DNA of 64,000 nucleotides. Origin: Candidatus Woesearchaeota archaeon (lineage in GTDB: Archaea > Nanobdellota > Nanobdellia > Pacearchaeales > GW2011-AR1). The stretch lies in assembly GCA_964623495.1 (NCBI GenBank), contig CAZUTV010000001.1:44682-108681 (forward strand). The letters are read 5' to 3'. Under the pieces are notes generated by a model, which worked only from the letters and a program-made list of their open reading frames with translations, did not search any database and was not told the origin of the DNA. The position numbers were made by a program, and so were the translations under genes. Positions 24,157-61,971 of this stretch are shown here, piece by piece. Positions within the stretch are counted from its first letter, which is position 1, and the number at the start of each line of letters is the position of its first letter.

Positions 24157-24402
24157 ATGTTAGTCAGTTTAATAAAAAAGGAGATGAATTACGAAATAGT
24201 CGCAGTTCTAGTGTTTATTGCTATCTCTGGATTATATCTTTTCGCTGTGCACGGCCCGGCGTATATAATAGACAACATGTTCCTTTCCATATTCTCTGCA
24301 TCCATAGTAATTCTTCTAACACTTTTAGTTGTAAAGATAATAGAACATGCACATTACAAGACAAAGAGCAAGTATAGTTATGTTGATTGGAGAAAACACT
24401 AA
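24157..24402 (+). CDS. small 2-TM membrane protein
   Basis: ORF plus hydrophobicity. Confidence 0.35.
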   Translation: MLVSLIKKEMNYEIVAVLVFIAISGLYLFAVHGPAYIIDNMFLSIFSASIVILLTLLVVKIIEHAHYKTKSKYSYVDWRKH

Positions 24403-25532
24403 ATTTTTAGTATAGATTCTTTTCCGCTTTTCATGTCCTTAACCATGAACTTTTTTGCTTTTACTTCCTTTTCACCAACGAAGATAACCTTTCCAATATT
24501 GTAAGCATTTGCATATTCAAGGGCCTTGCTTGGCTTTCCATAGTAGATACTTACAGCGCTTCCTTTAGATCTTAATTTGTCCGCAAGTTCAATTGCTTTC
24601 CTATCTTGTTCAAGAGAAACAATAAGATACCTTTCTTTATCTATTTTAAATTTTGATATCAAGGCCAGTCTGTCCAAACCAAAAGAAATTCCGGTACATT
24701 GAACATTATTAAAGATATAACTCCCTCCTGCAACGAGGGTTTCTTTTATTCCCTGAGCTTTAACCTCAAAAACATTTCCATTATAATAGCTTAAACCTCT
24801 AACAACTGTAGGTGAAAATTCGGCTTTTAGCCCATAAAGTCTGCAGTATTCCATTAAACCAAGTATTTCCTTATAAGATTCAAACTTGGAAAAGTATTTT
24901 TCTCCTTTTTTTAAGTTATCAAGAACTTTCTCGGCTTTTAGCTTCTTTAAATTTTCTTTAACTTCTTTTTCTGAGAGCTTGTCTATCTTATCAATTTCCC
25001 TTAAAACCTGGAACTTGTCCTTATCCTTGACCTGATTGTCTTCTAGAATTTCATTCAGTAATTTTCTGTTGTTAATAAGAATTATTGGCTTAATGTCAAG
25101 TTCAACCAATGCTTTATTCACCACTGCCAGAATTTCCGCTTCATCCTTAATACCTGACCCAATTGTATCTATGTCACACTGAATAAACTGCCTAAATCTA
25201 TTGCTAGATATGGGCTCGTCCCTAAAGACTGGCCCTATTTGGTATCTTTTGTAGGGGAGTTTTTTATTCTGCATAAGCCTCTTTAACTGAAAGGTAAATT
25301 CATATCTTAAAGCAAGCTTCCTTTCTCCCTTGTCTTTTAATTTAAAAATATCAGAAACAGCTTCGTCGCTTGCATTTTCTCCTTTGACAAATTCTTCATA
25401 TTCAAGTACAGGGGTCTCTGCAGGCTCAAATCCATATTTTTCAAAACACTCGACCAGGATTTTCCTTATTTTCTCCCTTTTTATGGCCTCTCCACCAGAA
25501 AAATCCCTGAAGCCTTTGACGGGATCAGTCAT
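24399..25532 (-). CDS. hisS: histidyl-tRNA synthetase
   Basis: Class II motifs GFRDFSG, RYEFTFQLKR and YQIGPVFRDE; C-terminal anticodon-binding domain present. Confidence 0.8.
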   Translation of the reverse strand: MTDPVKGFRDFSGGEAIKREKIRKILVECFEKYGFEPAETPVLEYEEFVKGENASDEAVSDIFKLKDKGERKLALRYEFTFQLKRLMQNKKLPYKRYQIGPVFRDEPISSNRFRQFIQCDIDTIGSGIKDEAEILAVVNKALVELDIKPIILINNRKLLNEILEDNQVKDKDKFQVLREIDKIDKLSEKEVKENLKKLKAEKVLDNLKKGEKYFSKFESYKEILGLMEYCRLYGLKAEFSPTVVRGLSYYNGNVFEVKAQGIKETLVAGGSYIFNNVQCTGISFGLDRLALISKFKIDKERYLIVSLEQDRKAIELADKLRSKGSAVSIYYGKPSKALEYANAYNIGKVIFVGEKEVKAKKFMVKDMKSGKESILKI

Positions 25533-27411: not shown

Positions 27412-27483
27412 GGTTTATTAGACCAGTCATTTTGACCTCCAAAAATTTAATTCAGAAACAAAGCGAGGCTTTGAGCATGCAAG

Positions 27484-27555
27484 GGCGGAAGGAGAGAATC
27501 GAACTCTCGTCTCTCGAGCCACAGTCGAGCGTACTGCCATTATACTACAACCGCC
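27484..27555 (-). tRNA. tRNA-His (GUG) with genomically encoded G-1
   Basis: Anticodon stem CTCGA/TCGAG, loop CTGTGGC; 8-bp acceptor including G-1:C73; two U-U oppositions at the stem base. Confidence 0.8.
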
Positions 27556-27707: not shown

Positions 27708-28172
27708 CTAAACCTGATAAACGGTCTTTCTCGTGCAAACATGTTCTTTTCCTCTAGAATCTTTAAAATAAGCAAAAACTTCTATTTTAATGGGTATTGC
27801 TTCGGTATTTATTCCAGAAATGCTTTTAGAAACACTTTCTAAAGGGACTATATTCCCTGAAACATCTATAACCCCGCCGTTTTCTCCAACACCATCATAA
27901 AATATAACTTTTAATCCGGCAATTTCTCCTCCTCCTGCTTTTCTGGTAAAGGTAACTTTACAGGTATAATCTCCACCGCCAAAAACACATCCAGAGATAG
28001 AATTCGCAGTTACATCTATCTCAAGGCAATTGAAAGAGCTACCAGTTGTCTCAACTCCGCCTTGAATAACCTTATGAACCACGGCCCAAACAGTCCCTAT
28101 ATCTACAAGTACAAGAAGAATTATAATAAGGGTTGTTACAACCGTAGACAATCCTCTTTTTTTTGGTCTCAT
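27708..28172 (-). CDS. archaeal type IV pilin-like protein (class III signal peptide)
   Basis: MRPKKRGLSTVVTTLIIILLVLV N-terminus; the track ORF starts further upstream at an unlikely Met. Confidence 0.65.
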   Translation of the reverse strand: MRPKKRGLSTVVTTLIIILLVLVDIGTVWAVVHKVIQGGVETTGSSFNCLEIDVTANSISGCVFGGGDYTCKVTFTRKAGGGEIAGLKVIFYDGVGENGGVIDVSGNIVPLESVSKSISGINTEAIPIKIEVFAYFKDSRGKEHVCTRKTVYQV

Positions 28173-28179
28173 TTTAAGA

Positions 28180-28569
28180 CTAACTATTTTTTCCAAAACA
28201 GATATTGCATTTATTAGAAAATGACTTGTCCTGATTTTGATGGATCTTGCAGAGAGTTTTAGATTTCCTGAACTCAACGCAAAGTTTATAGACAACTTCA
28301 AAAGCATCTTTCTTTTTTTCAATTATTTCCTTGGCTGCTTTCATTATTTTAGTCTCTTGTTCTCTTGGAAACTTAACCTCTGCTCCCCTCTTTGACTTTG
28401 CATAATGGGATATTGTTGCCTCGCTTGTTCCAAAAATCTTAGCTATCTGCTTCTGGCTTAAATTATATTCTTTAATGAATATTTTAGTAAGTTCTCTTCT
28501 TAAGGCAGGAATAAGATACCATACTTCTATTTCCTGTGGCATAAGCTTGTTCATGTAAAAGCAAATCAA
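28180..28569 (-). CDS. HTH transcriptional regulator
   Basis: LSQKQIAKIFGTSEATISHY HTH; 7 nt upstream of the pilin gene. Confidence 0.5.
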   Translation of the reverse strand: MICFYMNKLMPQEIEVWYLIPALRRELTKIFIKEYNLSQKQIAKIFGTSEATISHYAKSKRGAEVKFPREQETKIMKAAKEIIEKKKDAFEVVYKLCVEFRKSKTLCKIHQNQDKSFSNKCNICFGKNS

Positions 28570-32238: not shown

Positions 32239-32682
32239 CTAAAATGCGTATGTTGCCGGTGGGCTACAAATGTGGTTTTGTCCTGTAGTATCCTTAAAGT
32301 AAGGAGATACTTCGACTGAAGAAGGAGCTATAAGGTCATTAGCAGCAGTTAATGTTTTTGTTTCTAAAGCTCCTACATTTCCGCTAACATCAACAATAGT
32401 GCTAGATGCAGTTCCATTTTTGTATACTACCATCACACCTGAGAGGTCTTCTCCTCCTGCGCTCCTACTAACAATAACTCCTGTAGGATCAGTGGCACCC
32501 CCCGTGATATTTGTTACACTTAAAGCAACCTGAAAGCACTTGGCTCCGTAATCCACGCTTTGTGAACCTCCCTCTACAATTCCCCTAATAACTACCCAGA
32601 TAATCCCTATAGCTACAAGTACAAGAAGAATTATAATAAGGGTTGTTACAACCGTAGACAATCCTCTTTTATTATTAATCAT
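32239..32682 (-). CDS. archaeal type IV pilin-like protein (class III signal peptide), paralogue of 27708-28172
   Basis: MINNKRGLSTVVTTLIIILLVLVAIG. Confidence 0.65.
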   Translation of the reverse strand: MINNKRGLSTVVTTLIIILLVLVAIGIIWVVIRGIVEGGSQSVDYGAKCFQVALSVTNITGGATDPTGVIVSRSAGGEDLSGVMVVYKNGTASSTIVDVSGNVGALETKTLTAANDLIAPSSVEVSPYFKDTTGQNHICSPPATYAF

Positions 32683-32727
32683 CTCAACCTCCTTTCATCA
32701 CCTATTTATTAATATCTATGTTTAATT

Positions 32728-32745
32728 AAGCAAAATCCGATATTT
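32728..32745 (-). promoter_or_regulatory. TATA-box-like element upstream of pilin gene
   Basis: ATATTTAAATGTTTT about 45 nt upstream of the start. Confidence 0.35.
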
Positions 32746-32753
32746 AAATGTTT

Positions 32754-33962
32754 TTATGCTCTATTGAAATTATCCAAAACCTCGAAAAAATCCTTGCTAG
32801 AAATAACTTTATCCACTTCTGTAAGGCCTCTTTGCTCTATAAACTTGGCAAAAGCATCTGGCTTATAGCCTCTTTTCCTTAAAGAAGATATTGTTGGGAG
32901 TTTTTCGTCATCATATCCTGAAAATTCCCCGGATTCTATTAAAGCAGAAATTTTTCTTTTTGACAAAACAAGGTCAGTAAACTTAACTCTTCCAATAAAG
33001 AAAACCCAAGGAAACTTCTTGTGAAATACCTCAAAAACTAGTTTCTGCCTCTCTGCATTATCCCTATGGTCCTTTCCCCTTATTACATGAGTCATACCTA
33101 ACTCCATATCATCCACACTTACAACCAGGTTCATCAAAGGCCAAACTCTGTATTTTTTCTTCTGCAAGGGATGCTCTTTAAGACTTATTCTTGCAAGCGG
33201 AAAATCTCTCATAGCCGGATTTTTATGGGTCATTGAACTTTTGAACCTTAAAACAACCTCGCCTTCCTTGTATCCCGTCTTAGAAAGCATTTTCTTCCAT
33301 CTTTTTACGTTCTCTTCGACATCTAGATGCCTGCACGGGCATTCTGTTTTTGATTCTGAATGATGCCTGAATGCGTCTTGTGAGCAGGTGCATACATAAG
33401 ACTTTCCTTTTTTTATTAATTCTTCAGCGTACTGATAATATGTCTTCATTCTATCAGAGCTATTTATGTACTGGTATACATTCCCAAAAATCCAGTCGCA
33501 GTCTTCTTTTATTTTTTTATAAGAGTCTACCTGTACTGTTGTTGGGTCAGTATCATCAACAATAACATAGAATTTTCCCCCATATTTTTTAATATAAAGA
33601 GAGGAGACTAAATTTGAGATTATGTGCCCGACATGCAGTGGACCAGAAGGCGCTGGCCTGAACCTCATTATAACCCCTGTTTTCTTAACATCTGGAAGTT
33701 CAGGCAAGCCTTCCCTGCTAGTTCTCTCGCTGATAATCTCACGTAATCTCTCAAATTCTTTTTTTTGATTATCTAGCGATAAGGAGTTAATCTCTTTAAC
33801 ACAATCATTAATCTTTGGCATAACCTCCCTAACTTCTTCCTTTTTCAGCCCTTCATTAAATAAAGCACTTATGACACTTCCTGGATTAGCTTTTCCATTA
33901 TAAGCAACTGCATTTTTCAAGGCATAAGCTTTTATTTTTTTAGCTAGGTTTTTAATTGTCAT
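32754..33962 (-). CDS. gltX: glutamyl-tRNA synthetase, archaeal type, lacking the C-terminal anticodon-binding region
   Basis: Archaeal-type N-terminal YALKNAVAYNGKANPG region; class I HVGH; Zn knuckle YVCTCS...CPCRHL; KMSKS-like VLSKR; stops at about 400 aa where archaeal GluRS continues for about 150 aa. Confidence 0.75.
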   Translation of the reverse strand: MTIKNLAKKIKAYALKNAVAYNGKANPGSVISALFNEGLKKEEVREVMPKINDCVKEINSLSLDNQKKEFERLREIISERTSREGLPELPDVKKTGVIMRFRPAPSGPLHVGHIISNLVSSLYIKKYGGKFYVIVDDTDPTTVQVDSYKKIKEDCDWIFGNVYQYINSSDRMKTYYQYAEELIKKGKSYVCTCSQDAFRHHSESKTECPCRHLDVEENVKRWKKMLSKTGYKEGEVVLRFKSSMTHKNPAMRDFPLARISLKEHPLQKKKYRVWPLMNLVVSVDDMELGMTHVIRGKDHRDNAERQKLVFEVFHKKFPWVFFIGRVKFTDLVLSKRKISALIESGEFSGYDDEKLPTISSLRKRGYKPDAFAKFIEQRGLTEVDKVISSKDFFEVLDNFNRA

Positions 33963-34561
33963 TTTTCATTCTCCTTTATCTTCTTCTCAACTCCTTTAAT
34001 GACTTTGGGTCTTATCTTAAACCATTCCTCTTTTAGTAAGCCATAGATATTTTCATCATGAATTTTTCCAGTAGATTTAGCAATAACTGTTTTTCTCTTC
34101 ATGCCCTCGTGTGTAAATCCGAGCTTTTGAGACATTTTATTTGATGCTTTATTCTCAACGAAAGCGGATGTTTCTATCTTTCTCAATTTAAGTTTATTAA
34201 ATGCAAAGTCAAGAACAGGAACTTTAGCTTCTAAGATATATCCCCTTCTCCAATATTTTTTATTGATCCAGGACCCGGTATGGCCTTTTTTGCTCTGGTT
34301 ATCAATTCCGTGTATTGTTGTAACCCCAATAACTTTTTTCTCTGCTTTCAACTCCATAAAGAAGACATACTCTTTTTTGTTCTTTTTCTTTAGCTCCTTA
34401 AGCTTAGAATTTATCCACCACAATGCATCCTTTTTCTTGTAAGGATGCGGAACAACCAAGAGCATTCCCGATACTTCTATCTCTTTAACTCCTTCAACAA
34501 TGTCCTTCCAATCGCTTTTTCTTGGAGGCCTTAAAATAAGTCTCTTTGTTTTTATTATCAT
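33959..34561 (-). CDS. GNAT-family acetyltransferase (RimJ/RimL-like)
   Basis: KRLILRP N-terminus and GNAT motifs. Confidence 0.7.
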   Translation of the reverse strand: MIIKTKRLILRPPRKSDWKDIVEGVKEIEVSGMLLVVPHPYKKKDALWWINSKLKELKKKNKKEYVFFMELKAEKKVIGVTTIHGIDNQSKKGHTGSWINKKYWRRGYILEAKVPVLDFAFNKLKLRKIETSAFVENKASNKMSQKLGFTHEGMKRKTVIAKSTGKIHDENIYGLLKEEWFKIRPKVIKGVEKKIKENEK

Positions 34562-37261: not shown

Positions 37262-37405
37262 CCTCTTCCTTAATTTAACCATGGTTGAATATCGAATCAC
37301 TCAGAGGCATCGAAAAGATTCGACCTCGGTTGCTGGATCGAGAATTTACACGAATAATTCAAAAGGAGTGTGGGTTCGAGCAATAAAAACCCGCCGGAGG
37401 TTTTT
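37262..37405 (+). promoter_or_regulatory. GC-enriched structured leader / candidate cis-regulatory or small RNA element
   Basis: About 45% GC versus about 33% context; hairpins TCGAATC(16 nt loop)GATTCGA and CTCG..CGAG; terminal stem AAAAACC-CGCCGGA-GGTTTTT occludes the GGAGG SD 6 nt before the ATG at 37406. Confidence 0.3.
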
Positions 37406-38818
37406 ATGGTTGAAATAAAGAGTGTGGCAGACATAATAAAAGAAATCTCCCCATACTATAAGGAAAAGGGCGGACCAGAAGCAGAACATAAGCTTGTTTA
37501 TGACTCAAGCTCTGAAACTCTCGAGCCAGTTTACTTTTATATCATTGACTTAATGAATGATCTAGGGTTTAAAATTGAAAAACTAGTTGATAACTTTTCT
37601 TCTTCTGTGGGTTCTGGCCATTTTTCAGAACTTGGCCAAAGAGCAACAATTATGCAGCAGCAAGGAGCAAAAATTCTTGGTGATGTCAATACGGTTCTAA
37701 GATCTGTATTAAATATTGTATACGATTTAAAGGAATTCAGAATAAGACTTCAAACCTACGACGACTTGAAATCAAAAGATAAAAAGAAATCAGAAGGTGC
37801 AAAATACTCGCTAAAACAAATCTGGATGGATAAGGTTGATATTAACAAGGGAAATTCAAGCATAAAGGCAATGGCTCTCGGGCAGGCAGGATTTCAAACT
37901 CTAATAGACGCATTTCTAATTGTTAATGACGAAAAACTTAAGGGGCCTGATGGAAAAGAACTTGATCTGAATGACAGAGTTAAAAGAATAGTCCAGCAGA
38001 GAATTTCAGAATACAATATCTGGATTAAACAATCAGAGATGGAATTAAGAAAAAGATTTGAATTAGAGAAAACCTACCTTAAAAGCCAGGTCAATGCCCT
38101 AAAACTTTACACAAGATGGGCCAAACCCTACTTAAAAGCCGCTTCTCAGCTAGAAACAAAAGACTTTGGGAGAGATCCTGCACTAGTCAAGGTTTTCAAC
38201 ACCCTTCTCCTTGAACTAACACTTCTTGGAGCCAGGGAAATAAAAGTCAAAGAATCTGCCCTTGAAGGGGATCTTCCAAGAGAATTCACTAGAGAAGGAT
38301 TCATAAAGTCCTTGAAGAGAAAATACCATGTGTGTGTTTTGGTTGATTTTGTTTTTAGGGGGATTCCGCAAAGAGCAGGCCAGCAATTCCATTATGTTTT
38401 TGGAGGAAAAGTGGATGTTATTTTTAGAGGTTATGTTTTAAACGATGATGAGATAAATAAGATTAAGGAAGTTTTGGACAAATCAGACCTCTCAACAGCC
38501 CTATCTTTAGTTGAAGGGACCACAGAAGAAAGTCTTTCCCAAATTGAAGAAGAAATAAACTTTTATTTGGAAGAAAGAGATGAAAGTAAAGAAGAGAAGA
38601 GCGATGAGTCAAATCCTTTTCTGGCATTGTTTGGATTCTATAATAAGTCAGATTCAAAGTCTTCTGGAAAGAAAGAAAAGAAAGAGATAATCGTAGCCAA
38701 AGACAGCTGGGTTGAAAAAGCCCATCTCAGAAGGCTTGGGTCTGAAAAAGCAGTAGAAGACGCTTTTAAGGTCTTTGAAACCTACAAAAAGTCCCATGAT
38801 ATGCCTGCGTACACTTAA
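37406..38818 (+). CDS. hypothetical 470-aa largely alpha-helical protein
   Basis: ORF; track start 37370 is GTG inside the structured leader; no recognisable motifs. Confidence 0.5.
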   Translation: MVEIKSVADIIKEISPYYKEKGGPEAEHKLVYDSSSETLEPVYFYIIDLMNDLGFKIEKLVDNFSSSVGSGHFSELGQRATIMQQQGAKILGDVNTVLRSVLNIVYDLKEFRIRLQTYDDLKSKDKKKSEGAKYSLKQIWMDKVDINKGNSSIKAMALGQAGFQTLIDAFLIVNDEKLKGPDGKELDLNDRVKRIVQQRISEYNIWIKQSEMELRKRFELEKTYLKSQVNALKLYTRWAKPYLKAASQLETKDFGRDPALVKVFNTLLLELTLLGAREIKVKESALEGDLPREFTREGFIKSLKRKYHVCVLVDFVFRGIPQRAGQQFHYVFGGKVDVIFRGYVLNDDEINKIKEVLDKSDLSTALSLVEGTTEESLSQIEEEINFYLEERDESKEEKSDESNPFLALFGFYNKSDSKSSGKKEKKEIIVAKDSWVEKAHLRRLGSEKAVEDAFKVFETYKKSHDMPAYT

Positions 38819-40365: not shown

Positions 40366-40399
40366 ATAGGTTAATAAATAAAAAATCCGTATTTTGTTT

Positions 40400-42160
40400 A
40401 TGGGAAAAGGGGAATACACAATTAAAAATTTTTATTCTGGAGGATACTCTAGTTTTAGCCCTAGTTATGGAAGTTCTTTTACAGGATATAGGACATCAGC
40501 ACAACATTTGGGTATGGCCACTGATGCAAGAACGGCAAATGTTTTAAAAGAAGTTTCTGAAAATTTATCTGCTGGAGCTAAAACCGTTGAATTAAACCAA
40601 GTTTTTCCGGAAGTTTTTGAATCAATCCCAAAAGATCAATTAAAAGAAGTAAATAGGCTTGCAAAACTAACCGGAGTAGATGTCACACTTCATGCGCCTT
40701 TAGTTGAACCTTCTGGTATGACAAAAGACGGGTTTACAGAAGCAGGAAGAGAATCTGCTGAAAGACAAATGAATCTTGCAATAGAAAGGGGGCACGAAAT
40801 AAATCCTAAAGGAAATGTTAATATAACCTTCCACTCTTCGGTTCTTCTCCCAGGACAGATAAAACCAAAAGGAAGAGAAGTTCCAGAAACATTTGTTATA
40901 AATTCGGAATCGGGCTCGGTACAAAAACTGCCCTTGAAAGAAAGAAAGTTTCCTGGAGAAGCACAGCAGCCAAACATCAAAGAAGAGGTGACTAAGATCA
41001 ATGAAGAGGTTTGGAAGCAGCAACTGACCCATCTGGCCTACAATATAGAAAGAGCAAGTGAACTTATAAGGTCTTCGGGATATCTGGCCCTAACAGCCGA
41101 AGCCGAAGAAAAAGCCGGAGAAAAATTATATCCCCAGGAAAAACAGGCAAAAAACGCCTTTAATGTTGGAACAGCTTTTCTGCAAGATTCTTATAGAGAG
41201 CTTAAAGCCCTTTACGATTTAGCATATAAAAACGCAACCGAAGAAGAAAAAAATATGCTGTTGGATTTAGGAAATAAAATTAAGGAAAGGGTGGAAGTAA
41301 TAAAAAAAGAGCCGGATAGCCGTAAAAGCATAATGTTAAGACAGGAAATTGTTGAAGATGGTCTTGCCACCCTAACCAAGATCTCCATTCCAGAGATATA
41401 CAAATCCCTAAATGATTTTGCCAAAGAAAAAACAACAGAAACATTTGCAAACGCAGCCCTTAATTCATATAAAAAATTCAAAGAAAGCACCCCCATAATA
41501 AGTATTGAAAATCCCCCTGCAGGAGGAGCATTCAGCACAGCAGAGGAATTAAAAGAAATTATAGAAAAATCTAGAGAAAAGTTTGTCAAAAAAGCTGTCG
41601 AGTCAGGAATTTCTGAATCAACTGCAAAAGAGCAGGCTGAAAAAATAATCGGAGCTACATGGGATGTCGGCCACATAAACATGCTTAGGAAATACGGCTA
41701 TGAAGGTAAAGACATTGTAAAAGAATCCGAGAAGATAGCACCCTTCTTAAAACACGTCCATCTTTCTGACAACTTTGGCTTAGAGCACACAGAATTGCCT
41801 ATGGGAATGGGAAATGTACCAATAAAAGAAATAATGGAGAAATTTGACGAAGAGGGCTTCAAAGGAAAAAAAATAATCGAAGCGATGCACTGGTGGCAGC
41901 ATTTTTCTCCTGGCGGAAAAACAAATCCTCCGTTGCAGGTAACTTTAGAGGCTTTTGGGTCTCCAATTTATTCTTCTGAATCCGGGCCTTACTGGAATCA
42001 ATCCCCTGGTCTAATACAAAATTATTATAGTGGTTATGGCCAGTTTCTTCCTGATGTTAACTACCAAACCTTTGGTGCAGGATTCTCACAGCTGCCTGCA
42101 GAACTCGGAGGACAAAGGCCAGGCCAAGGTAGTAGAATGAGCGGAAGAGGAATGGAATAA
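40400..42160 (+). CDS. xylose-isomerase-like TIM-barrel (sugar-phosphate isomerase/AP-endonuclease-2 family) split by a long coiled-coil insert, with Gly/Tyr/Ser-rich termini
   Basis: N-half TVELNQVF...VDVTLHAP; C-half KHVHLSDNFGLEHTELPMGMGNVPIKEI...GKKIIEAMH is the family metal-site motif; about 250-aa helical insert between halves; track start 40394 is TTG. Confidence 0.5.
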   Translation: MGKGEYTIKNFYSGGYSSFSPSYGSSFTGYRTSAQHLGMATDARTANVLKEVSENLSAGAKTVELNQVFPEVFESIPKDQLKEVNRLAKLTGVDVTLHAPLVEPSGMTKDGFTEAGRESAERQMNLAIERGHEINPKGNVNITFHSSVLLPGQIKPKGREVPETFVINSESGSVQKLPLKERKFPGEAQQPNIKEEVTKINEEVWKQQLTHLAYNIERASELIRSSGYLALTAEAEEKAGEKLYPQEKQAKNAFNVGTAFLQDSYRELKALYDLAYKNATEEEKNMLLDLGNKIKERVEVIKKEPDSRKSIMLRQEIVEDGLATLTKISIPEIYKSLNDFAKEKTTETFANAALNSYKKFKESTPIISIENPPAGGAFSTAEELKEIIEKSREKFVKKAVESGISESTAKEQAEKIIGATWDVGHINMLRKYGYEGKDIVKESEKIAPFLKHVHLSDNFGLEHTELPMGMGNVPIKEIMEKFDEEGFKGKKIIEAMHWWQHFSPGGKTNPPLQVTLEAFGSPIYSSESGPYWNQSPGLIQNYYSGYGQFLPDVNYQTFGAGFSQLPAELGGQRPGQGSRMSGRGME

Positions 42161-42206
42161 CAAACAAATTTAAAAACTATATACTCCAACCTATATAATA
42201 AAAAAG

Positions 42207-43196
42207 ATGGTTAAGAAAAAAAGAGGGAAAAAATCAAAGACGATACGAAAGCTTCCTAATTTAGATGATTTAAGCAAGAAAACAGAAAAGGAAAAGACAG
42301 TTGAAAGCCAAGAAAAAAAACCCATTTCTTCAAAAACCTTCAAAAAACCAAAGATTCATCTAAAACAGGAAAAGCCTAAGAAAAATTTAAATCCAAAAAA
42401 CTTTCCAAGTCTGCAGCTTAAGTCAGAGCATGATATTGCAATGGATTTTGCAGTTAAGGTCTATAAGAGATTTGACAAAATTATCAAGTCTGTTGTTCTT
42501 TTTGGCTCGACAGTAAAGCAGTCTGCTGTTGCAGGTTCAGACATTGACATTATAATAATCATAGATGATGTTGCAATAAAATGGGATCAGGAGCTTATTG
42601 CCTGGTACAGGGAAGAGCTCGAGAAAATTTTGCAAGTCAACCCTTATAAGTATGCATTGCACATAAACACAGTCAAGTTAAGCACCTGGTGGGAAGATGT
42701 AAGCAGAGGGGATCCTGTAGTTATAAATGTCTTAAGGCATGGTGAACCGATGCTGGATTATGCAGGATTCTTTGAGCCTTTAAAATATCTTTTGCTACAG
42801 GGAAAAATCCGACCTTCACCGGAAACAATTTACATATCTCTTCAAAGAGCCCCAACCCATTTAGCAAGAAGCAAAGCATCTGTATTGAGTGCAGTAGAAG
42901 GATTGTATTGGGCAATGGTTGATTCAGCTCATGCCGCCTTGATTGCAGCAAATATCCTTCCTCCTTCTCCAGAGCATCTTGCAATTGATTTAAGGGAGCA
43001 GTTTGTAAATGAAGGAAAATTAAACATGAAATATGTTGTCTGGTACAGAGACTTGCTAATGCTCCACAAAAAAATCAATCACGGAGAAATAAGGGACGTT
43101 AAAGGCTCTGATATTGACGCCTGGTATGACAGAACAAAAGAATTCATTGACGTCATGGCAAATTTAGTTAAAAATATTGTTGATAAGCAAGATTAA
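42207..43196 (+). CDS. Pol-beta-superfamily nucleotidyltransferase with C-terminal helical domain and Lys-rich N-terminal extension
   Basis: VLFGSTVKQSAVAGSDIDIIIIIDD (GS...DxD); paralogous to 47163-48968 (shared RPSPE region). Confidence 0.6.
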   Translation: MVKKKRGKKSKTIRKLPNLDDLSKKTEKEKTVESQEKKPISSKTFKKPKIHLKQEKPKKNLNPKNFPSLQLKSEHDIAMDFAVKVYKRFDKIIKSVVLFGSTVKQSAVAGSDIDIIIIIDDVAIKWDQELIAWYREELEKILQVNPYKYALHINTVKLSTWWEDVSRGDPVVINVLRHGEPMLDYAGFFEPLKYLLLQGKIRPSPETIYISLQRAPTHLARSKASVLSAVEGLYWAMVDSAHAALIAANILPPSPEHLAIDLREQFVNEGKLNMKYVVWYRDLLMLHKKINHGEIRDVKGSDIDAWYDRTKEFIDVMANLVKNIVDKQD

Positions 43197-57444: not shown

Positions 57445-59166
57445 ATGGGTGTTGTAAAAAAACAAGTAAAGAAGGAGGATAAAGAGCTTGAAATTTGGGT
57501 ATCAGAAGCAATAAAAAAAGGTTATAGTCCCCAGCAAATAAAAAAAATTCTTTCAGACCAGAAATACCCTCAGGGGCAGATATCTAAAATCCTCTCAGTG
57601 TACAACAAAATAGAATCAATAATTGCTGCCCCGAAAAAAGTAGAGGTTCAGCCAAAAATACAGGAAGGAAAGGGGAGCATAAGAGAAAGCTACCGTCTTG
57701 AAATTGACGGGGCAAAGATAGACATAGAAATTCAAAAAACCAACGAAGGCCTAGTTTATAATGTAAAGATTCCAAGCATTGATATTGGAACAAAGGCTCT
57801 ATTAGATGAAATAAGAAAAGACCTTATCACTATCACAGCAATTGGCGTTGGCGAAATAATTGACCAAAAATCCGTTTCTAGGATGAAGAATAAATTCATG
57901 AGTGATGCCTCAGACCTAATAAAAGAAAAGCTTCCCAGAATAAAGAAGGAAACAGAAGATTTTCTTATTGGGGTTTTAATGCAGGAAATGCTTGGGCTTG
58001 GAAAAATTGAATTCTTAATCAATGACCCAAATCTTGAAGAAATTGTAATTGTAAACAGCAAGGAAACAAGAGTTTATCATAAAAAATACGGATGGTTACT
58101 AACAAACATAACTCTGGCCTCTGAAGACGAAGTGACAAATTACGCAAACATTATTGCAAGAAGAGTTGGAAGACAGATCAGCATTTTAAACCCTCTTCTA
58201 GATGCGCACGTTGTTACCGGAGATAGAGCCAACGCGGTTTTATATCCTATTTCCACAAAAGGGAATACAATCACAATAAGAAAATTCGCAAGAGATCCCT
58301 GGACAATAATTGATTTAATAGAAAATAAAACCGTCAGCAAAGAAATTGCGGCAATCTTATGGCTGGGAATAGAATACGAGATGAACATCATTTTTTCAGG
58401 CGGAACAGCCTCTGGAAAAACAGTTTTCCTTAATGCATGCATGCCTTTTATTCCTCCAAACCACAGAGTAATTAGTATAGAAGATACAAGAGAGCTAATG
58501 CTGCCAAGATTCCTTTATTGGTGCCCCCTAGTTACAAGAACTCCAAATCCAGAAGGCAAAGGGGAAGTCTCTATGCTAGATTTATTAGTAAACTCTCTTA
58601 GAATGAGGCCGGACAGAATCGTCGTTGGAGAAATCAGAAGGCAAAGAGAGGCAGAGGTTCTTTTTGAGGCAATGCATACCGGACACAGCGTTTACTCCAC
58701 TCTCCATGCAGATACAGCAAGCGAAACAATCAGAAGATTGACAAACCCCCCGATAAATGTCCCTCCTTCAATGCTGAGCAGCGTCAACCTAAATATAGTA
58801 ATGTTCAGGGACAGAAGAAAAGGTTACAGGAGAGTTATTCAGGTTGGAGAGTTTATGGCAGGAAAAGATACATATATAGCAAATCTCATCTACAGATGGG
58901 TTCCGGAAAAAGACCAGTTTGTACAGCACAACAAAAGCCTTTCTTTCTTTGACCAAATAAGCAGAAACACAGGAATGAGCCAGATTGAAATAGACAAGAA
59001 CCTAGAATATAAGAGATCTATTTTTGATTGGCTTATTAAAAATAAAATCCGCGATTTAGAATCTTTCGGAAAAGTGATGAACCTGTATTATACTGATCCA
59101 GAAGAACTTAAATCAATAATAAAAAATAATTTGACAAATAAGATACTGGAAAGAAAGGGGGATTAA
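57445..59166 (+). CDS. FlaI/PilB-like secretion ATPase (archaeal type IV pilus/archaellum assembly ATPase)
   Basis: Walker A FSGGTASGKT, Asp box ISIEDTRELML, Walker B and His box; about 150-aa N-terminal extension. Confidence 0.85.
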   Translation: MGVVKKQVKKEDKELEIWVSEAIKKGYSPQQIKKILSDQKYPQGQISKILSVYNKIESIIAAPKKVEVQPKIQEGKGSIRESYRLEIDGAKIDIEIQKTNEGLVYNVKIPSIDIGTKALLDEIRKDLITITAIGVGEIIDQKSVSRMKNKFMSDASDLIKEKLPRIKKETEDFLIGVLMQEMLGLGKIEFLINDPNLEEIVIVNSKETRVYHKKYGWLLTNITLASEDEVTNYANIIARRVGRQISILNPLLDAHVVTGDRANAVLYPISTKGNTITIRKFARDPWTIIDLIENKTVSKEIAAILWLGIEYEMNIIFSGGTASGKTVFLNACMPFIPPNHRVISIEDTRELMLPRFLYWCPLVTRTPNPEGKGEVSMLDLLVNSLRMRPDRIVVGEIRRQREAEVLFEAMHTGHSVYSTLHADTASETIRRLTNPPINVPPSMLSSVNLNIVMFRDRRKGYRRVIQVGEFMAGKDTYIANLIYRWVPEKDQFVQHNKSLSFFDQISRNTGMSQIEIDKNLEYKRSIFDWLIKNKIRDLESFGKVMNLYYTDPEELKSIIKNNLTNKILERKGD

Positions 59167-59173
59167 TTCTAAG

Positions 59174-60055
59174 ATGAATAGATTTCAGATTCCTTTTACC
59201 CTTGCAGACATAGAGATTCAAAAAAGAAAAAGCAAGAGATTTATAAAATTCGCCAGCGCAAAAAAAACAAAGCTGGATGAATATCTAAAAGCAGCCAATG
59301 TTAATCTTAATAAAAGAGAATATCTTGCAATATGCTACAGAAGATTTTTAATAAACATTATTAGCTTCTCAGTAATAGCCTCCTCTGTTCTTGGAATTTT
59401 AAGGACAAGCCTCTTTCCTGTTTACGGATTCATAATTTCTCTGTTGATATCCGGCCTGGTTTATTTTAATCAGATAAATTATCCAAAAGTATATACCTTA
59501 AACAAACAAAGGGATGTAGACAAAAACCTTATTCCTGTGCTTCAGGATATGATAGTTCAATTAAATTCAGGAGTTCCCATATTCAGAATTCTCTCTAATA
59601 TCTCTGAATCAGATTACGGGGAAGTTAGCGTGGAATTCAAAAAAATAGTAAAGGAGATTAATTCGGGGGTTTCCCAGATTGATGCAATAGAAAAGCACGC
59701 AAAACTTAATACTTCCGAGTATTTCAAAAGAGTTTTGTGGCAGATCAGCAACGGCATGAGGGCTGGAAGCGACATGGAAATTGTCATAAAAGAAGGAATA
59801 AAGAATTTAAGTGACGAACAAGCAATCCAAATCCAGACCTACGGAAATAGGTTAAACCCTTTAATTATGTTTTACATGTTAATTGCAGTTATAATTCCTG
59901 CATTGGGAATAACTTTCCTTATCATTCTTGCATCTCTTCTAGGATTTCCCGAAAAAGTAATTCATCTTATATTTGTAGTTATCTTTGTGATAGTTGTATT
60001 TATGCAGATAATGTTTCTTGGATTAGTCAAATCAAGGAGGCCAAGTTTATTATGA
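59174..60055 (+). CDS. FlaJ/TadC-like membrane protein, single T2SSF domain
   Basis: T2SSF cytoplasmic domain plus 3 TM. Confidence 0.7.
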   Translation: MNRFQIPFTLADIEIQKRKSKRFIKFASAKKTKLDEYLKAANVNLNKREYLAICYRRFLINIISFSVIASSVLGILRTSLFPVYGFIISLLISGLVYFNQINYPKVYTLNKQRDVDKNLIPVLQDMIVQLNSGVPIFRILSNISESDYGEVSVEFKKIVKEINSGVSQIDAIEKHAKLNTSEYFKRVLWQISNGMRAGSDMEIVIKEGIKNLSDEQAIQIQTYGNRLNPLIMFYMLIAVIIPALGITFLIILASLLGFPEKVIHLIFVVIFVIVVFMQIMFLGLVKSRRPSLL

Positions 60056-60149
60056 TAAATAAAGAATATTTTTGTACTAACTTCCATCAGAGGCAACTAA
60101 GGGAAGTTGGCGCGGATGCTGGATTGAAAACCCGCAGGAGGTTTTCAAT

Positions 60150-61112
60150 ATGAATACGCTAAAGTTTTACCCCAGACAATTAAGAGAGTCTTATGAAAAA
60201 AATATTAAAAATGCAGGAATTGAAAATCCTCCTGAAAAGTACCATAACTTTATTTTTTATATAACTCTAATGCTTGCCGTGATTTCAATGGGATTCTTTG
60301 CAATAATAGGGATGACCATATATTTTTCCTTGGTTGTGTTTATCTTCTTGAATGCATTTATCTACTTTAAAATAAGTTTGAAGGCAAGCGCCAGAATAAA
60401 AAAAATGGAAACTATATTTCCGGACGTTATTTCACTAATGGCAAGCAATCTTCGTTCAGGAATGACAATAGATAAATCCTTTCTTTTGGCTGCACGTCCA
60501 GAATTTGATCCCTTGGATAAAGAAATATTAAAAACCGGAAAAGAAATAACTACAGGCCAGGACATAATATTTGCGCTAAAAAGACTTGGGATAAGAGTAA
60601 ACTCTGAGAAAATCTCAAAAGTCGTGACTTTAATAATCTCAGGATTAAGGGCAGGAGGAAATATCTCTGACTTGTTAGACCAAACATCAAAGAACATGAA
60701 AGAAAAAGAGATTATTGAAAAAAAGGCAAGATCAACTATTTTAATGTATGTTATCTTCGTATTTTTTGCAGTTGGGGTGGGAGCGCCAATACTTTTCGGG
60801 TTAAGCTCAATCCTGGTGGAGATTGTTATGGCGTTAACTTCAAAGCTGCCTGAGGCGGCAACCGCAAGTACAAATCTGCCTTTATCATTTAAGGAAATAT
60901 CCATATCTCCAAGTTTTGTCATTTACTTTTCATTATTCTTTATAGCAGTTACAGACCTGATCTCCTGCATAGTAATAGGTTTAGTAAACAAGGGGGAGGG
61001 AAAGGCAGGATTAAGGTATTTCCTACCCTTACTTGCAGTAAGTTATGTTCTGTTCTTTATAATTAGGTCTTTACTGTCAAAGACACTAGTAAGCTCCTTA
61101 TCAGTAATATAG
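60150..61112 (+). CDS. FlaJ/TadB-like membrane protein, single T2SSF domain
   Basis: T2SSF domain plus TM. Confidence 0.7.
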   Translation: MNTLKFYPRQLRESYEKNIKNAGIENPPEKYHNFIFYITLMLAVISMGFFAIIGMTIYFSLVVFIFLNAFIYFKISLKASARIKKMETIFPDVISLMASNLRSGMTIDKSFLLAARPEFDPLDKEILKTGKEITTGQDIIFALKRLGIRVNSEKISKVVTLIISGLRAGGNISDLLDQTSKNMKEKEIIEKKARSTILMYVIFVFFAVGVGAPILFGLSSILVEIVMALTSKLPEAATASTNLPLSFKEISISPSFVIYFSLFFIAVTDLISCIVIGLVNKGEGKAGLRYFLPLLAVSYVLFFIIRSLLSKTLVSSLSVI

Positions 61113-61140
61113 TAGAGTTTAAAAAACTCTTAAACATAGA

Positions 61141-61971
61141 TTGAATATGAAAAAAAAGAGGAAAGAAAAACCTAGAAAAAAATTGCACAAGAAAAAACCC
61201 GTTATTAAAAAGGAAAAGCACAAGAAATCCCGGCATTTTACAAAAGAAGAAAAAATAACCAAGGACACTGTAACGGAAAGAGTTTCTTCCGGAATCCCAA
61301 AGTTTGACCAAATGACTCAGGGGGGCTTTGAAAGAAACTCAATAAATCTGCTTGCCGGCGGCAGTGGCAGTGGAAAAACAATCTTCTCCATACAATTTTT
61401 ATTAGAAGGCGTCAGAAGAGGGGAAAAAGTTCTTTATATCACCTTTGAAGAAAAAAAAGAGGAGTTTTATAGAAATATGAAGAAGTTTGGATGGAATCTT
61501 CAAAAAGCAGAAGACTCGGGAAATTTTATTTTCTTGGAATACTCCCCGGAAAAAGTTAAGATGATGTTGGACGAAGGCGGGGGAACAATAGAAACAACCG
61601 TGTTAAAGTACAACATTTCAAGACTTGTAATTGACAGTGTGACGAGTTTTTCGTTGTTATTTGGGGATGAGCTATCCAAAAGACAGGCTGTTCTTGGATT
61701 GTTTGATATTATAAGGAAATGGAATTGTACGAGCCTCCTCACAATACAGCACAACCCATCCAGCACAATTGACAGAGGAATTTCCCCTGCAGAATTCGAG
61801 GCAGACAGTATCACTCTTCTTTATTATGTTAAAGTTGGAGCAAGAAGAAAAAGATTCTTGGAGGTGTTAAAGATGCGCGGCACAGACCACTCAAAAGAAA
61901 TCCACAATTATATGATAAAGAAGGGAATCCAGATAGGCAGCATTTCTAATGTGAGATTGTTTGACGAGTAA
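61141..61971 (+). CDS. KaiC/FlaH-like RecA-superfamily ATPase with Lys-rich N-terminal extension
   Basis: Walker A LAGGSGSGKT, Walker B LVIDSV. Confidence 0.75.
   Translation: MNMKKKRKEKPRKKLHKKKPVIKKEKHKKSRHFTKEEKITKDTVTERVSSGIPKFDQMTQGGFERNSINLLAGGSGSGKTIFSIQFLLEGVRRGEKVLYITFEEKKEEFYRNMKKFGWNLQKAEDSGNFIFLEYSPEKVKMMLDEGGGTIETTVLKYNISRLVIDSVTSFSLLFGDELSKRQAVLGLFDIIRKWNCTSLLTIQHNPSSTIDRGISPAEFEADSITLLYYVKVGARRKRFLEVLKMRGTDHSKEIHNYMIKKGIQIGSISNVRLFDE

What the first reader, a model, noticed from the sequence alone, without database searches (positions are those of the whole stretch)
32683..33962. GluRS stops at ~400 aa, lacking the anticodon-binding domain
The ORF aligns to the archaeal-type GluRS N-terminal domain, HIGH, Zn knuckle and KMSKS regions. 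It terminates about 150 aa early, followed by a 70-nt AT-rich spacer and the second pilin gene. Explanations are a split gene with the C-terminal module encoded elsewhere, a naturally minimal GluRS, or truncation by insertion of the duplicated pilin cassette.
Basis: partly seen in the sequence, partly recalled or inferred. Interest (0 to 1): 0.55.

Follow-up and report, generated by a model that had tools for sequence, protein, structure and literature searches.

The report
Naturally short archaeal glutamyl-tRNA synthetase
This gene is an intact glutamyl-tRNA synthetase that lacks the whole anticodon-reading module, as do its relatives in well over a hundred small symbiotic archaea, so these cells probably charge tRNA-Glu without reading the anticodon.

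Summary
Window 32754-33962 (- strand) is a 402-aa archaeal-type GluRS. It has the N-terminal YqeY domain, Rossmann core with HIGH (HVGH), Zn knuckle, LSKRK loop and stem-contact fold. It stops at the boundary where the two beta-barrel anticodon-binding domains normally begin.

It is not an assembly error, frameshift or recent truncation:
- The best 120 protein clusters (66-100% identity) are 397-420 aa.
- In 80 species-level genomes (55-71% identity) the ORF ends within a few residues of the same point.

The pilin-insertion idea is refuted. The pilin homologue lies directly downstream in 55 of 80 short loci, and also downstream of full-length GluRS genes in related genomes.

The short gene sits in the same syntenic slot that holds a full-length gltX in sister lineages. 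Basal ~470-aa relatives have lost only the distal barrel, which points to stepwise loss in cis rather than gene fission. No C-terminal module was found in the window or in 1.1 Mb of flanks. The one exception is a locus with a catalytically dead full-length paralogue next door. Similar short forms arose independently in Micrarchaeota and another lineage.

Most likely this is a naturally minimal housekeeping GluRS. Whole-genome absence of a second GluRS or a free barrel domain could not be tested.

The parts
32754..33962 (-). Short archaeal-type GluRS gene (402 aa plus TAA stop). Domains are YqeY, Rossmann, CP and SC-fold. Both beta-barrel anticodon-binding domains are absent.
   Evidence: AF2 model has pLDDT 89.6. 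Foldseek best hit is 3AII, rmsd 1.8 A over 317 columns.
33687..33962 (-). N-terminal helical YqeY-type domain (residues ~1-92), joined to the core by a low-confidence linker (residues 79-83).
   Evidence: It aligns to 3AII residues 8-~95. PMC2978374 calls this region the 'YQEY domain (residues 1-85)'. The model has four helices. 23 positions are invariant in the family.
32757..33686 (-). Catalytic Rossmann fold, CP (acceptor-binding) insertion and stem-contact fold (residues ~93-402). The last helix ends ...FFEVLDNFNRA.
   Evidence: PF00749 covers residues 97-388. The tail alignment shows the ORF ends where full-length relatives continue with the barrel domains.
33624..33635 (-). HIGH motif (HVGH, residues 110-113).
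   Evidence: Read from the sequence. H110 and G112 are invariant in 23 family members.
33333..33392 (-). Zn-knuckle cysteines C191, C193, C208 and C210.
   Evidence: Read from the sequence. C191, C193 and C208 are invariant and C210 is nearly invariant.
32952..32966 (-). KMSKS-equivalent loop LSKRK (residues 333-337).
   Evidence: Read from the sequence. S334, K335 and R336 are invariant.
32683..32753 (-). 71-nt A+T-rich spacer between the gltX stop and the pilin start. It contains TTTAAATA 5 nt after the stop codon and GGAGG upstream of the pilin ATG.
   Evidence: Read from the sequence. It holds no coding continuation of GluRS. Any promoter role is inference only.
32239..32682 (-). Pilin-like gene (147 aa, class III signal-peptide-like N-terminus). 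It is a conserved downstream neighbour, not the cause of the truncation.
   Evidence: A homologue lies 18-185 nt downstream on the same strand in 52 of 80 short loci (55 counting three at 339-632 nt). Homologues also lie downstream of full-length GluRS in L120, L122, L125, L131, L135, L136 and L168.
33959..34561 (-). GNAT acetyltransferase (Acetyltransf_3). Its stop overlaps the gltX start by 4 nt (ATGA).
   Evidence: This adjacency is found in only 3 loci, so it is not a conserved partner.
37370..38818 (+). Syntenic marker 'unk470': a 482-aa protein with no family match, encoded on the opposite strand upstream of gltX, two genes away in the window.
   Evidence: It is present upstream of gltX in 66 of 88 loci, and upstream of full-length type A and type B gltX. 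It has no Pfam or NCBIfam hit.
40394..43196 (+). Syntenic markers: the AP_endonuc_2 protein (40394-42160) and the NTP_transf_2 protein (42207-43196).
   Evidence: They are conserved upstream of short, ~470-aa and full-length gltX.

Best explanation
The ORF is the intact, expressed housekeeping glutamyl-tRNA synthetase of a Pacearchaeota/Woesearchaeota-type DPANN archaeon. By analogy with other archaea it is probably the non-discriminating kind. It exists in a naturally minimal form: YqeY N-domain, Rossmann core with CP/Zn knuckle, and stem-contact fold.

Both beta-barrel anticodon-binding domains were lost in cis during reductive evolution. The inferred order is full length (~555 aa), then ~470 aa (distal barrel deleted internally), then ~400 aa (remnant of the proximal barrel also gone).

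Shown:
- The gene is real, and its short length is conserved across a large clade.
- It is catalytically intact by motif.
- It occupies the gltX slot of its relatives.

Inferred:
- It is the only GluRS in the cell.
- It charges tRNA-Glu (and tRNA-Gln, for later amidation) by reading only non-anticodon elements (acceptor stem, D-arm/augmented D-helix, elbow) through the CP and SC-fold domains.
- The tethered YqeY domain acts as an affinity enhancer.
For: Conservation:
- The 120 best clusters at 66-100% identity are all 397-420 aa and carry PF00749 only.
- In 80 GTDB species loci at 55-71% identity, 77 complete ORFs are 388-472 aa, and nearly all end 0-8 residues after the alignment end.
- HIGH, the Zn cysteines, LSKRK and most of the active-site stretch are invariant, with mean column identity 73%.

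Structure:
- The model is confident (pLDDT 89.6) and superposes on 3AII with rmsd 1.8 A.

Domain boundary:
- The ORF ends at the SC-fold / proximal-barrel junction defined for 3AII (residue ~399; PMC2978374; alignment).

Reduction series:
- P0121 (468 aa) and L073 ORF1 (472 aa) keep only the final 'LLMPD...WFAHK' strands. They have an internal ~95-aa deletion of the distal barrel.
- They group with the 400-aa forms in 99 of 100 NJ bootstraps. The 400-aa forms alone are monophyletic in only 2 of 100.

Positional orthology:
- The short gene shares its upstream neighbours (unk470, AP_endonuc_2, NTP_transf_2) with the 468-aa form (L082).
- It shares them with full-length type A genes (L152, L171, and L086 in part).
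- It shares them with more than 20 full-length type B genes.
- L082 and L086 also share the downstream L7Ae-S28e-L24e cluster.

No partner nearby:
- Six-frame C-domain HMM searches find nothing in the window or in any short locus except L073.
- No second GluRS-like ORF is present in the window.
- None of the 80 full-length type B loci carries a short copy within 10 kb.
- The neighbour-gene tree puts B-bearing loci in their own clade. This suggests alternatives in different lineages rather than co-resident paralogues.

Recurrence:
- Independent ~400-aa forms sit directly upstream of L7Ae-S28e in a Micrarchaeota MAG (P0214, L176) and in another lineage (P0154, L178).

Precedent for the mechanism:
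- The YqeY domain is a cis affinity enhancer for tRNA in D. radiodurans GlnRS (PMC1865053).
- E. coli tRNA-Glu identity includes the augmented D-helix and acceptor pairs. H. pylori GluRS2 reads mainly the acceptor stem (PMC9976931).
Against: - Whole genomes could not be scanned. A second full-length GluRS or a free barrel protein elsewhere in the window's genome is therefore not excluded.
- A large full-length GluRS family (type B) exists in MAGs labelled Pacearchaeota/Nanoarchaeota.
- One genome (L073) carries both types side by side. Both types therefore co-occur in at least one genome.
- In characterised GluRS and GlnRS, anticodon bases are strong identity elements, and tRNA binding is needed for amino-acid activation (PMC9976931). 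Losing the module should be costly.
- No tRNA-Glu or tRNA-Gln gene was available to look for compensating identity elements.
- The core is only modestly more basic than in full-length relatives.
- Activity is untested.
Confidence: 0.6

Rival explanations
1. Specialised paralogue. The short protein is an extra GluRS-like enzyme, analogous to bacterial GluQRS/YadB or to a tRNA-Gln-dedicated GluRS2. A canonical full-length GluRS (for example type B) encoded elsewhere in the same genome does the housekeeping charging.
For: - Full-length type B GluRS is abundant in MAGs labelled Pacearchaeota/Nanoarchaeota.
- L073 shows types A and B in one genome.
- The N-terminal domain of the short family is much closer to lineage-mates of type B (mean 44%, up to 59% identity) than to its nearest full-length type A relatives (29%). 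This could reflect recombination between co-resident copies.
- The known precedent for an ABD-less GluRS homologue, GluQRS, is a paralogue (PMC2978374).
Against: - Short and type B genes occupy the same syntenic slot in different genomes. They are never found together within 10 kb in 159 of 160 loci.
- B-bearing loci form a separate clade in the neighbour-gene tree.
- In the one tandem case, the full-length copy is the one with destroyed HIGH and active-site motifs. The truncated copy is intact.
- No contig length is shared between the listed short-gene contigs (up to 535 kb) and type B contigs (up to 635 kb). One near match (72,553 vs 72,554 bp) was looked up and returned a different record, a 50.8-kb contig of another MAG. 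The contig behind the 72,554-bp figure was not retrieved. This is a weak test.
- GluQRS models score far below cutoff (88.7 vs 276.7).
Confidence: 0.2
2. Split or two-piece enzyme. The anticodon-binding function is supplied in trans. The supplier would be either a separately encoded beta-barrel protein or a catalytically dead full-length paralogue that docks tRNA for the short catalytic subunit.
For: - The ORF ends cleanly at a domain boundary.
- Split protein genes are known in Nanoarchaeum equitans (own knowledge).
- L073 carries an intact 565-aa ORF directly after the 472-aa enzyme. It has PF03950/PF20974 but has lost HIGH (RLNN).
Against: - No C-domain ORF is present in the window or in 1.1 Mb around 80 short genes, nor next to the independent short forms L176 and L178.
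- The ~470-aa intermediates show piecemeal deletion inside one ORF. Fission would not produce that.
- The L073 arrangement is unique among 160 loci. Its ORF2 C-domain has no detectable relatives in 5.8 billion proteins.
- YqeY in Deinococcus works only in cis.
Confidence: 0.15
3. Artefact or decay: an assembly error, a frameshift, a pseudogene, or a recent truncation by insertion of the pilin cassette.
For: Only the initial impression supports this: the gene is about 30% shorter than textbook archaeal GluRS and is followed by a member of a duplicated gene family.
Against: - The same protein is present in three independent sources (NCBI, JGI, Logan).
- The same end point is seen in more than 170 species-level genomes and more than 120 protein clusters.
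- Catalytic motifs are invariant.
- The pilin adjacency is shared with full-length genes.
Confidence: 0.02

Closest known systems
Archaeal non-discriminating GluRS (GlxRS-A), e.g. Methanothermobacter thermautotrophicus GluRS, PDB 3AII
   Same: It shares the N-terminal YqeY domain, Rossmann core, CP insertion with Zn site and SC-fold. Sequence E-value is 6e-89. Structural rmsd is 1.8 A at 37% identity. It nests within archaeal GluRS in the tree.
   Different: It lacks both the proximal and distal beta-barrel domains (3AII residues 400-552), which are the anticodon-binding module. It scores below both NCBIfam equivalog cutoffs.
GluQRS / YadB (bacterial tRNA-Asp queuosine glutamyl transferase)
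   Same: It is a GluRS-family catalytic core that has lost its anticodon-binding domain (PMC2978374).
   Different: GluQRS descends from bacterial GluRS, which has an alpha-helical ABD. It is about 300 aa without a YqeY domain, and it coexists with a canonical GluRS. Here the protein is archaeal-type, sits in the gltX slot, and matches GluQRS models only weakly (88.7 bits vs cutoff 276.7).
Full-length 'type B' GluRS of Nanoarchaeota/Pacearchaeota MAGs (P0138, P0346 and others)
   Same: It shares the same genomic slot (unk470 / AP_endonuc_2 / NTP_transf_2 upstream, sometimes the pilin downstream). Its N-terminal YqeY domain is very similar.
   Different: Type B is ~562 aa with both barrel domains and a derived catalytic signature (APFPSGxLHIGN, DDTIGS, AFRDRV, LEFSWAIDD, RGKDL, KLSKSK). 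It forms a separate clade in 99 of 100 bootstraps.
Helicobacter pylori GluRS2 and Acidithiobacillus GluRS1 (acceptor-stem / D-helix readers)
   Same: They are precedents for GluRS enzymes whose specificity rests mainly on acceptor-stem or augmented D-helix elements rather than the anticodon (PMC9976931).
   Different: They are bacterial enzymes and keep their anticodon-binding domain.
Deinococcus radiodurans GlnRS with appended YqeY domain
   Same: A GlxRS-family enzyme in which a YqeY domain raises tRNA affinity in cis (PMC1865053). The proposed role for the N-domain here is the same.
   Different: In Deinococcus, YqeY is C-terminal and is added to a complete ABD. Here it is N-terminal (as in all archaeal GluRS) and is the only appended tRNA-binding candidate left.

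Membership tests
Archaeal-type GluRS (GlxRS-A; TIGR00463 / PRK04156) | Class I E/Q catalytic domain (PF00749) with HIGH and KMSKS-type motifs | tested here: met
   PF00749 E 9e-62. HVGH and LSKRK are present and conserved.
Archaeal-type GluRS (GlxRS-A; TIGR00463 / PRK04156) | N-terminal YqeY-type domain and SC-fold, as in 3AII | tested here: met
   phmmer alignment of query 10-393 to 3AII 8-390. Domain limits are from PMC2978374.
Archaeal-type GluRS (GlxRS-A; TIGR00463 / PRK04156) | Beta-barrel anticodon-binding domains (PF03950 and PF20974; ABD-EQ) | tested here: not met
   There is no Pfam hit. The ORF ends at the barrel boundary. No remnant is found in any frame downstream.
Archaeal-type GluRS (GlxRS-A; TIGR00463 / PRK04156) | Score above the curated equivalog cutoff | tested here: not met
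   436.9 < 516 (PRK04156) and 365.2 < 401.75 (TIGR00463). NCBI names relatives 'glutamate--tRNA ligase family protein'.
Archaeal-type GluRS (GlxRS-A; TIGR00463 / PRK04156) | Orthology: phylogenetic placement and genomic position of gltX | tested here: met
   It nests among DPANN full-length GluRS. It shares a syntenic slot with full-length gltX.
Archaeal-type GluRS (GlxRS-A; TIGR00463 / PRK04156) | [quoted passage not shown] | not testable with these tools
   This needs an enzyme assay.
GluQRS (YadB) | Match to the GluQRS equivalog models, and descent from bacterial GluRS | tested here: not met
   TIGR03838 scores 88.7 against a cutoff of 276.7. The protein groups with archaeal GluRS.
GluQRS (YadB) | Coexistence with a canonical GluRS in the same genome | tested here: inconclusive
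   There is no second GluRS in the 64-kb window or within 10 kb in 79 of 80 relatives.
Split aminoacyl-tRNA synthetase genes (Nanoarchaeum-type fission) | A second ORF encoding the missing module | tested here: inconclusive
   None was found in the window, in 1.1 Mb of flanks, or beside the independent short forms. The genome-wide search was not possible.

The most novel reading that the evidence does not exclude
Anticodon reading by GluRS has been abandoned repeatedly (at least three independent times) in genome-reduced DPANN archaea. In these cells the ~400-aa enzyme is the sole GluRS. Glutamate identity, and glutamine identity via amidation, is then set entirely by non-anticodon tRNA features plus the YqeY domain. 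This would be a living example of the 'catalytic-domain-only' GluRS once postulated for early evolution. The single tandem locus (truncated active copy plus catalytically dead full-length copy) would be a snapshot of how the module became dispensable or was first supplied in trans.
Probability: 0.45. Interest if true: 0.75.

Novelty: new variant of a known kind. Interest (0 to 1): 0.62.

Why it matters
GluRS, GlnRS, ArgRS and class I LysRS need tRNA to activate their amino acid. In the GlxRS family the anticodon is a major identity element. A housekeeping GluRS with no anticodon-binding module, conserved across a large archaeal clade and evolved more than once, would have three consequences:
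- It would show how far tRNA recognition can be simplified in a living cell.
- It would provide a natural minimal scaffold for aaRS engineering.
- It would allow a direct test of ideas about the ancestral catalytic-domain-only GluRS.

There is also a practical point. Curated equivalog models miss these proteins, so genome annotation and completeness estimates can wrongly report GluRS as absent or partial in these lineages.

Tried and rejected
1. Frameshift or read-through. The sequence downstream of the TAA stop has further stops and then the pilin ORF. No frame encodes GluRS-like sequence.
2. Stand-alone C-domain in the window or flanks. HMMs built from type A C-domains, and then from type A plus type B, were searched against six-frame translations of all loci held. 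Only the L073 paralogue and the P0128 tail were found.
3. Database search with the C-domain of L073 ORF2.
4. Contig-length fingerprinting to detect short and type B genes on one contig. No exact match was found. The one near match (72,553 vs 72,554 bp) returned a different, 50.8-kb record on look-up, and the 72,554-bp contig itself was not retrieved.
5. tRNA-Glu/Gln identity analysis. None of 48 scanned loci, nor the window, contains these tRNAs.
6. Pfam test of the N-domain for GatB_Yqey. There was no significant hit. The YqeY assignment therefore rests on homology to 3AII and on that paper's description.
7. Charge compensation. The short cores are somewhat more basic (net +10 to +44) than full-length cores (-3 to +33). 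The ranges overlap, so this was not used as evidence.
8. Literature. No paper in the library describes an ABD-less archaeal GluRS in DPANN.
9. GNAT gene as a conserved partner. Rejected, because the adjacency is present in only 3 loci.
Full report
**1. The observation**

The ORF at window 32754-33962 (- strand) encodes 402 aa, with an ATG start and a TAA stop.
- Pfam finds only the class I E/Q catalytic domain PF00749 (residues 97-388).
- The archaeal GluRS models PRK04156 and TIGR00463 match from their position 4 to positions 398/567 and 390/560. The scores fall below the curated cutoffs.
- The best solved relative is M. thermautotrophicus GluRS (3AII, 553 aa), aligned query 10-393 to chain 8-390.
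- The authors of that structure give these domains (PMC2978374):
[quoted passage not shown] - CP insertion, 171-287.
  - Stem-contact fold, 354-399.
  - Proximal barrel, 400-408 and 500-552.
  - Distal barrel, 409-499.

The window protein therefore has everything up to the end of the SC-fold and neither barrel. HVGH, the four Zn-knuckle cysteines and LSKRK are present. An AlphaFold2 model is confident (pLDDT 89.6). Its best Foldseek match is 3AII, at rmsd 1.8 A over 317 columns. A 71-nt spacer and a 147-aa pilin-like ORF follow. No frame continues the synthetase.

**2. It is not an accident**

- The identical protein occurs in NCBI, JGI and Logan assemblies.
- The 120 best protein clusters (66-100% identity) are all 397-420 aa and carry PF00749 alone.
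- A scan of one genome per GTDB species found 174 relatives. In the 80 best loci (55-71% identity; MAGs labelled Pacearchaeota, Woesearchaeota, Nanoarchaeota), I extended the frame to the stop. The 77 complete ORFs are 388-472 aa, 58 of them 400-409 aa. Almost all end 0-8 residues after the end of the alignment.
- In a 23-member alignment the mean column identity is 73%, and the catalytic signature is invariant.

**3. The pilin is an old neighbour, not the cause**

- A homologue of the window's pilin-like gene lies on the same strand downstream. It is 18-185 nt away in 52 of the 80 loci, and three more lie at 339-632 nt.
- It also lies 43-672 nt downstream of full-length (~550 aa) GluRS genes in seven metagenome loci: L120, L122, L125, L131, L135, L136 and L168.
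- The second pilin-like gene in the window (27708-28322) is only 39% identical.

The insertion hypothesis is refuted.

**4. The short gene sits in the gltX slot**

Upstream of the short gene there is a conserved set of genes on the opposite strand:
- An unannotated ~480-aa protein ('unk470', window 37370-38818).
- An AP_endonuc_2 protein.
- An NTP_transf_2 protein.

These are present in 66, 51 and 48 of 88 loci respectively. The same neighbours flank:
- A 468-aa form (L082).
- Full-length type A genes (L152, L171; L086 has unk470).
- More than 20 full-length genes of a second sequence type (type B: L091, L092, L094 and many metagenome loci).

L082 (468 aa) and L086 (553 aa) are both followed by L7Ae-S28e-L24e. 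The short gene is thus the positional equivalent of full-length gltX.

**5. A reduction series**

P0121 (468 aa) and L073 ORF1 (472 aa) align with full-length relatives up to the SC-fold. They then skip about 95 residues (the distal barrel) and resume with the last strands, 'LLMPD...GYAKL...WFAHK'. The 400-aa forms stop right after '...FN(K/R)'.
- In NJ trees of the catalytic core, the 400-aa and 470-aa forms form one clade in 99 of 100 bootstraps.
- The 400-aa forms alone are monophyletic in only 2 of 100.
- The exact full-length sister group is unresolved (12 of 100).

Piecemeal deletion inside one ORF is the pattern expected from reductive loss, not from gene fission. A type B protein (P0128, 474 aa) shows the same internal deletion independently.

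**6. Search for the missing module or a second GluRS**

C-domain HMMs were searched against six-frame translations. They find nothing in the 64-kb window or in any locus bearing a short gene. The one exception is L073. The window has a single GluRS-like ORF.

In L073, the 472-aa enzyme is followed after 40 nt by an intact 565-aa type B ORF. That ORF keeps both barrel domains but has lost HIGH (RLNN) and other active-site signatures.

None of 80 metagenome loci with full-length type B genes carries a short copy within 10 kb.

**7. Type B complicates the picture**

Type B proteins are ~562 aa with the signature APFPSGxLHIGN, DDTIGS, AFRDRV, LEFSWAIDD, RGKDL and KLSKSK.
- They form a large family (more than 120 clusters). 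Some members are named 'glutamate--tRNA ligase [Candidatus Pacearchaeota archaeon]'.
- They form a separate clade in 99 of 100 bootstraps.
- They sit in the same slot as the short gene.
- The neighbouring AP_endonuc_2 genes of B-bearing loci form their own clade.

I read this as alternatives in different lineages. That is an inference, because whole genomes could not be scanned and both types do co-occur in L073. The N-terminal domain of the short family is 44% (up to 59%) identical to lineage-mate type B proteins. It is only 29% identical to its closest full-length type A relatives, whereas the catalytic regions show the opposite ranking. Recombination between once co-resident copies, or a shared lineage-specific partner of the N-domain, would explain this. 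I could not decide between them.

**8. Recurrence**

Other ~400-aa GluRS branch with different full-length relatives.
- P0214 (404 aa, Micrarchaeota CG1_02_51_15) lies directly upstream of L7Ae-S28e on an 81-kb contig.
- P0154 (399 aa) lies upstream of L7Ae-S28e in its assemblies.

In neither case is there a C-domain ORF nearby. Loss of the module therefore happened at least three times in DPANN lineages.

**9. Mechanism**

Shown: the core is intact, conserved and in the right genomic place.

Inferred: it is the cell's GluRS. It recognises tRNA through the acceptor stem and D-arm region via the CP and SC-fold domains, helped by the flexibly tethered YqeY domain.

Supporting precedents:
- YqeY is a cis-acting affinity enhancer in Deinococcus GlnRS (PMC1865053).
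- E. coli tRNA-Glu identity includes the augmented D-helix (PMC9976931).
- H. pylori GluRS2 reads chiefly the acceptor stem (PMC9976931).

From my own knowledge, not checked here: a C-terminally truncated E. coli GluRS retains specific but weakened charging.

Points against:
- Anticodon bases are strong determinants in the characterised systems.
- No tRNA-Glu or tRNA-Gln gene was available for analysis.

**10. Comparison with known families and novelty**

By descent and position it is an archaeal GlxRS-A. It fails one defining feature of that family (the beta-barrel ABD) and the curated cutoffs. It resembles GluQRS only in architecture, not in origin or score. No paper in the searchable library describes such an enzyme. 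I rate it a new variant of a known kind.

**11. Verdict**

| Explanation | Confidence |
|---|---|
| Naturally minimal housekeeping GluRS | 0.6 |
| Specialised paralogue beside a full-length GluRS | 0.2 |
| Trans-supplied anticodon-binding partner | 0.15 |
| Artefact | 0.02 |

The decisive test is a domain scan of complete genomes of the clade, followed by an aminoacylation assay.

Noticed in passing
L073:3384-6540 (contig CAZLFJ010000022.1): Two GluRS genes lie in tandem. The first is a 472-aa type A enzyme with intact motifs and the distal barrel deleted. Forty nt later comes an uninterrupted 565-aa type B ORF. That ORF keeps both barrel domains but has lost HIGH (RLNN) and other catalytic signatures. 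It may be a pseudo-enzyme or a trans tRNA-binding partner. This arrangement is unique among 160 loci.
   Followed up: partly
L088, L091, L092, L094, L096-L175 (e.g. L092:10001-11686): There is a large family of full-length 'type B' GluRS in Nanoarchaeota/Pacearchaeota MAGs. It has a derived catalytic signature (APFPSGxLHIGN, DDTIGS, AFRDRV, LEFSWAIDD, RGKDL, KLSKSK). It occupies the same genomic slot as the short gene. Its function relative to type A is unknown.
   Followed up: partly
window 33687-33962 versus P0138/P0346 N-termini: The YqeY N-domain of the short family is far more similar to lineage-mate type B proteins (up to 59% identity) than to its nearest type A catalytic relatives (29%). 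This suggests domain-level recombination or a shared lineage-specific binding partner.
   Followed up: partly
L176:6001-7215 and L178:6001-7200: Independent ~400-aa GluRS lacking the barrel domains occur in a Micrarchaeota MAG and in another lineage. Both lie directly upstream of the L7Ae-S28e ribosomal protein genes.
   Followed up: partly
L089:10001-11425 (P0128): A type B GluRS of 474 aa carries the same kind of internal deletion of the distal barrel as the type A ~470-aa forms. This is a parallel event.
   Followed up: no
window 37370-38818 (+): A 482-aa protein with no Pfam or NCBIfam match is encoded on the opposite strand upstream of gltX. It is conserved in most short, intermediate and full-length loci. 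Its function is unknown.
   Followed up: no
window 32239-32682 and 27708-28322 (-): There are two pilin-like paralogues (39% identity). The first forms a conserved gltX-pilin gene pair across many genomes. The reason for the linkage is unknown.
   Followed up: partly
window 24399-25532 (-): The histidyl-tRNA synthetase is only 377 aa. It spans the whole TIGR00442 model but scores below its cutoff (258.6 < 286.75). Other synthetases in this genome may therefore also be compacted.
   Followed up: no
window 27483-27554 (-) and ~30 related loci: A tRNA-His(GTG) gene lies 0.6-5 kb downstream of the short gltX on the same strand in the window and in about 30 related loci. This is a further synteny marker.
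   Followed up: no
window 57445-61971 (+): A type IV pilus / archaellum-like assembly set is present: a T2SSE ATPase, two T2SSF membrane proteins and a KaiC-like ATPase. It may be the machinery for the pilin-like proteins.
   Followed up: no
window 33959-33962: The GNAT acetyltransferase stop overlaps the gltX start (ATGA), which suggests co-transcription here. The adjacency is seen in only 3 loci.
   Followed up: yes
P0380: A type B GluRS on a 569-kb contig is labelled 'Methanococcoides sp. SA1' in NCBI.
   Followed up: no
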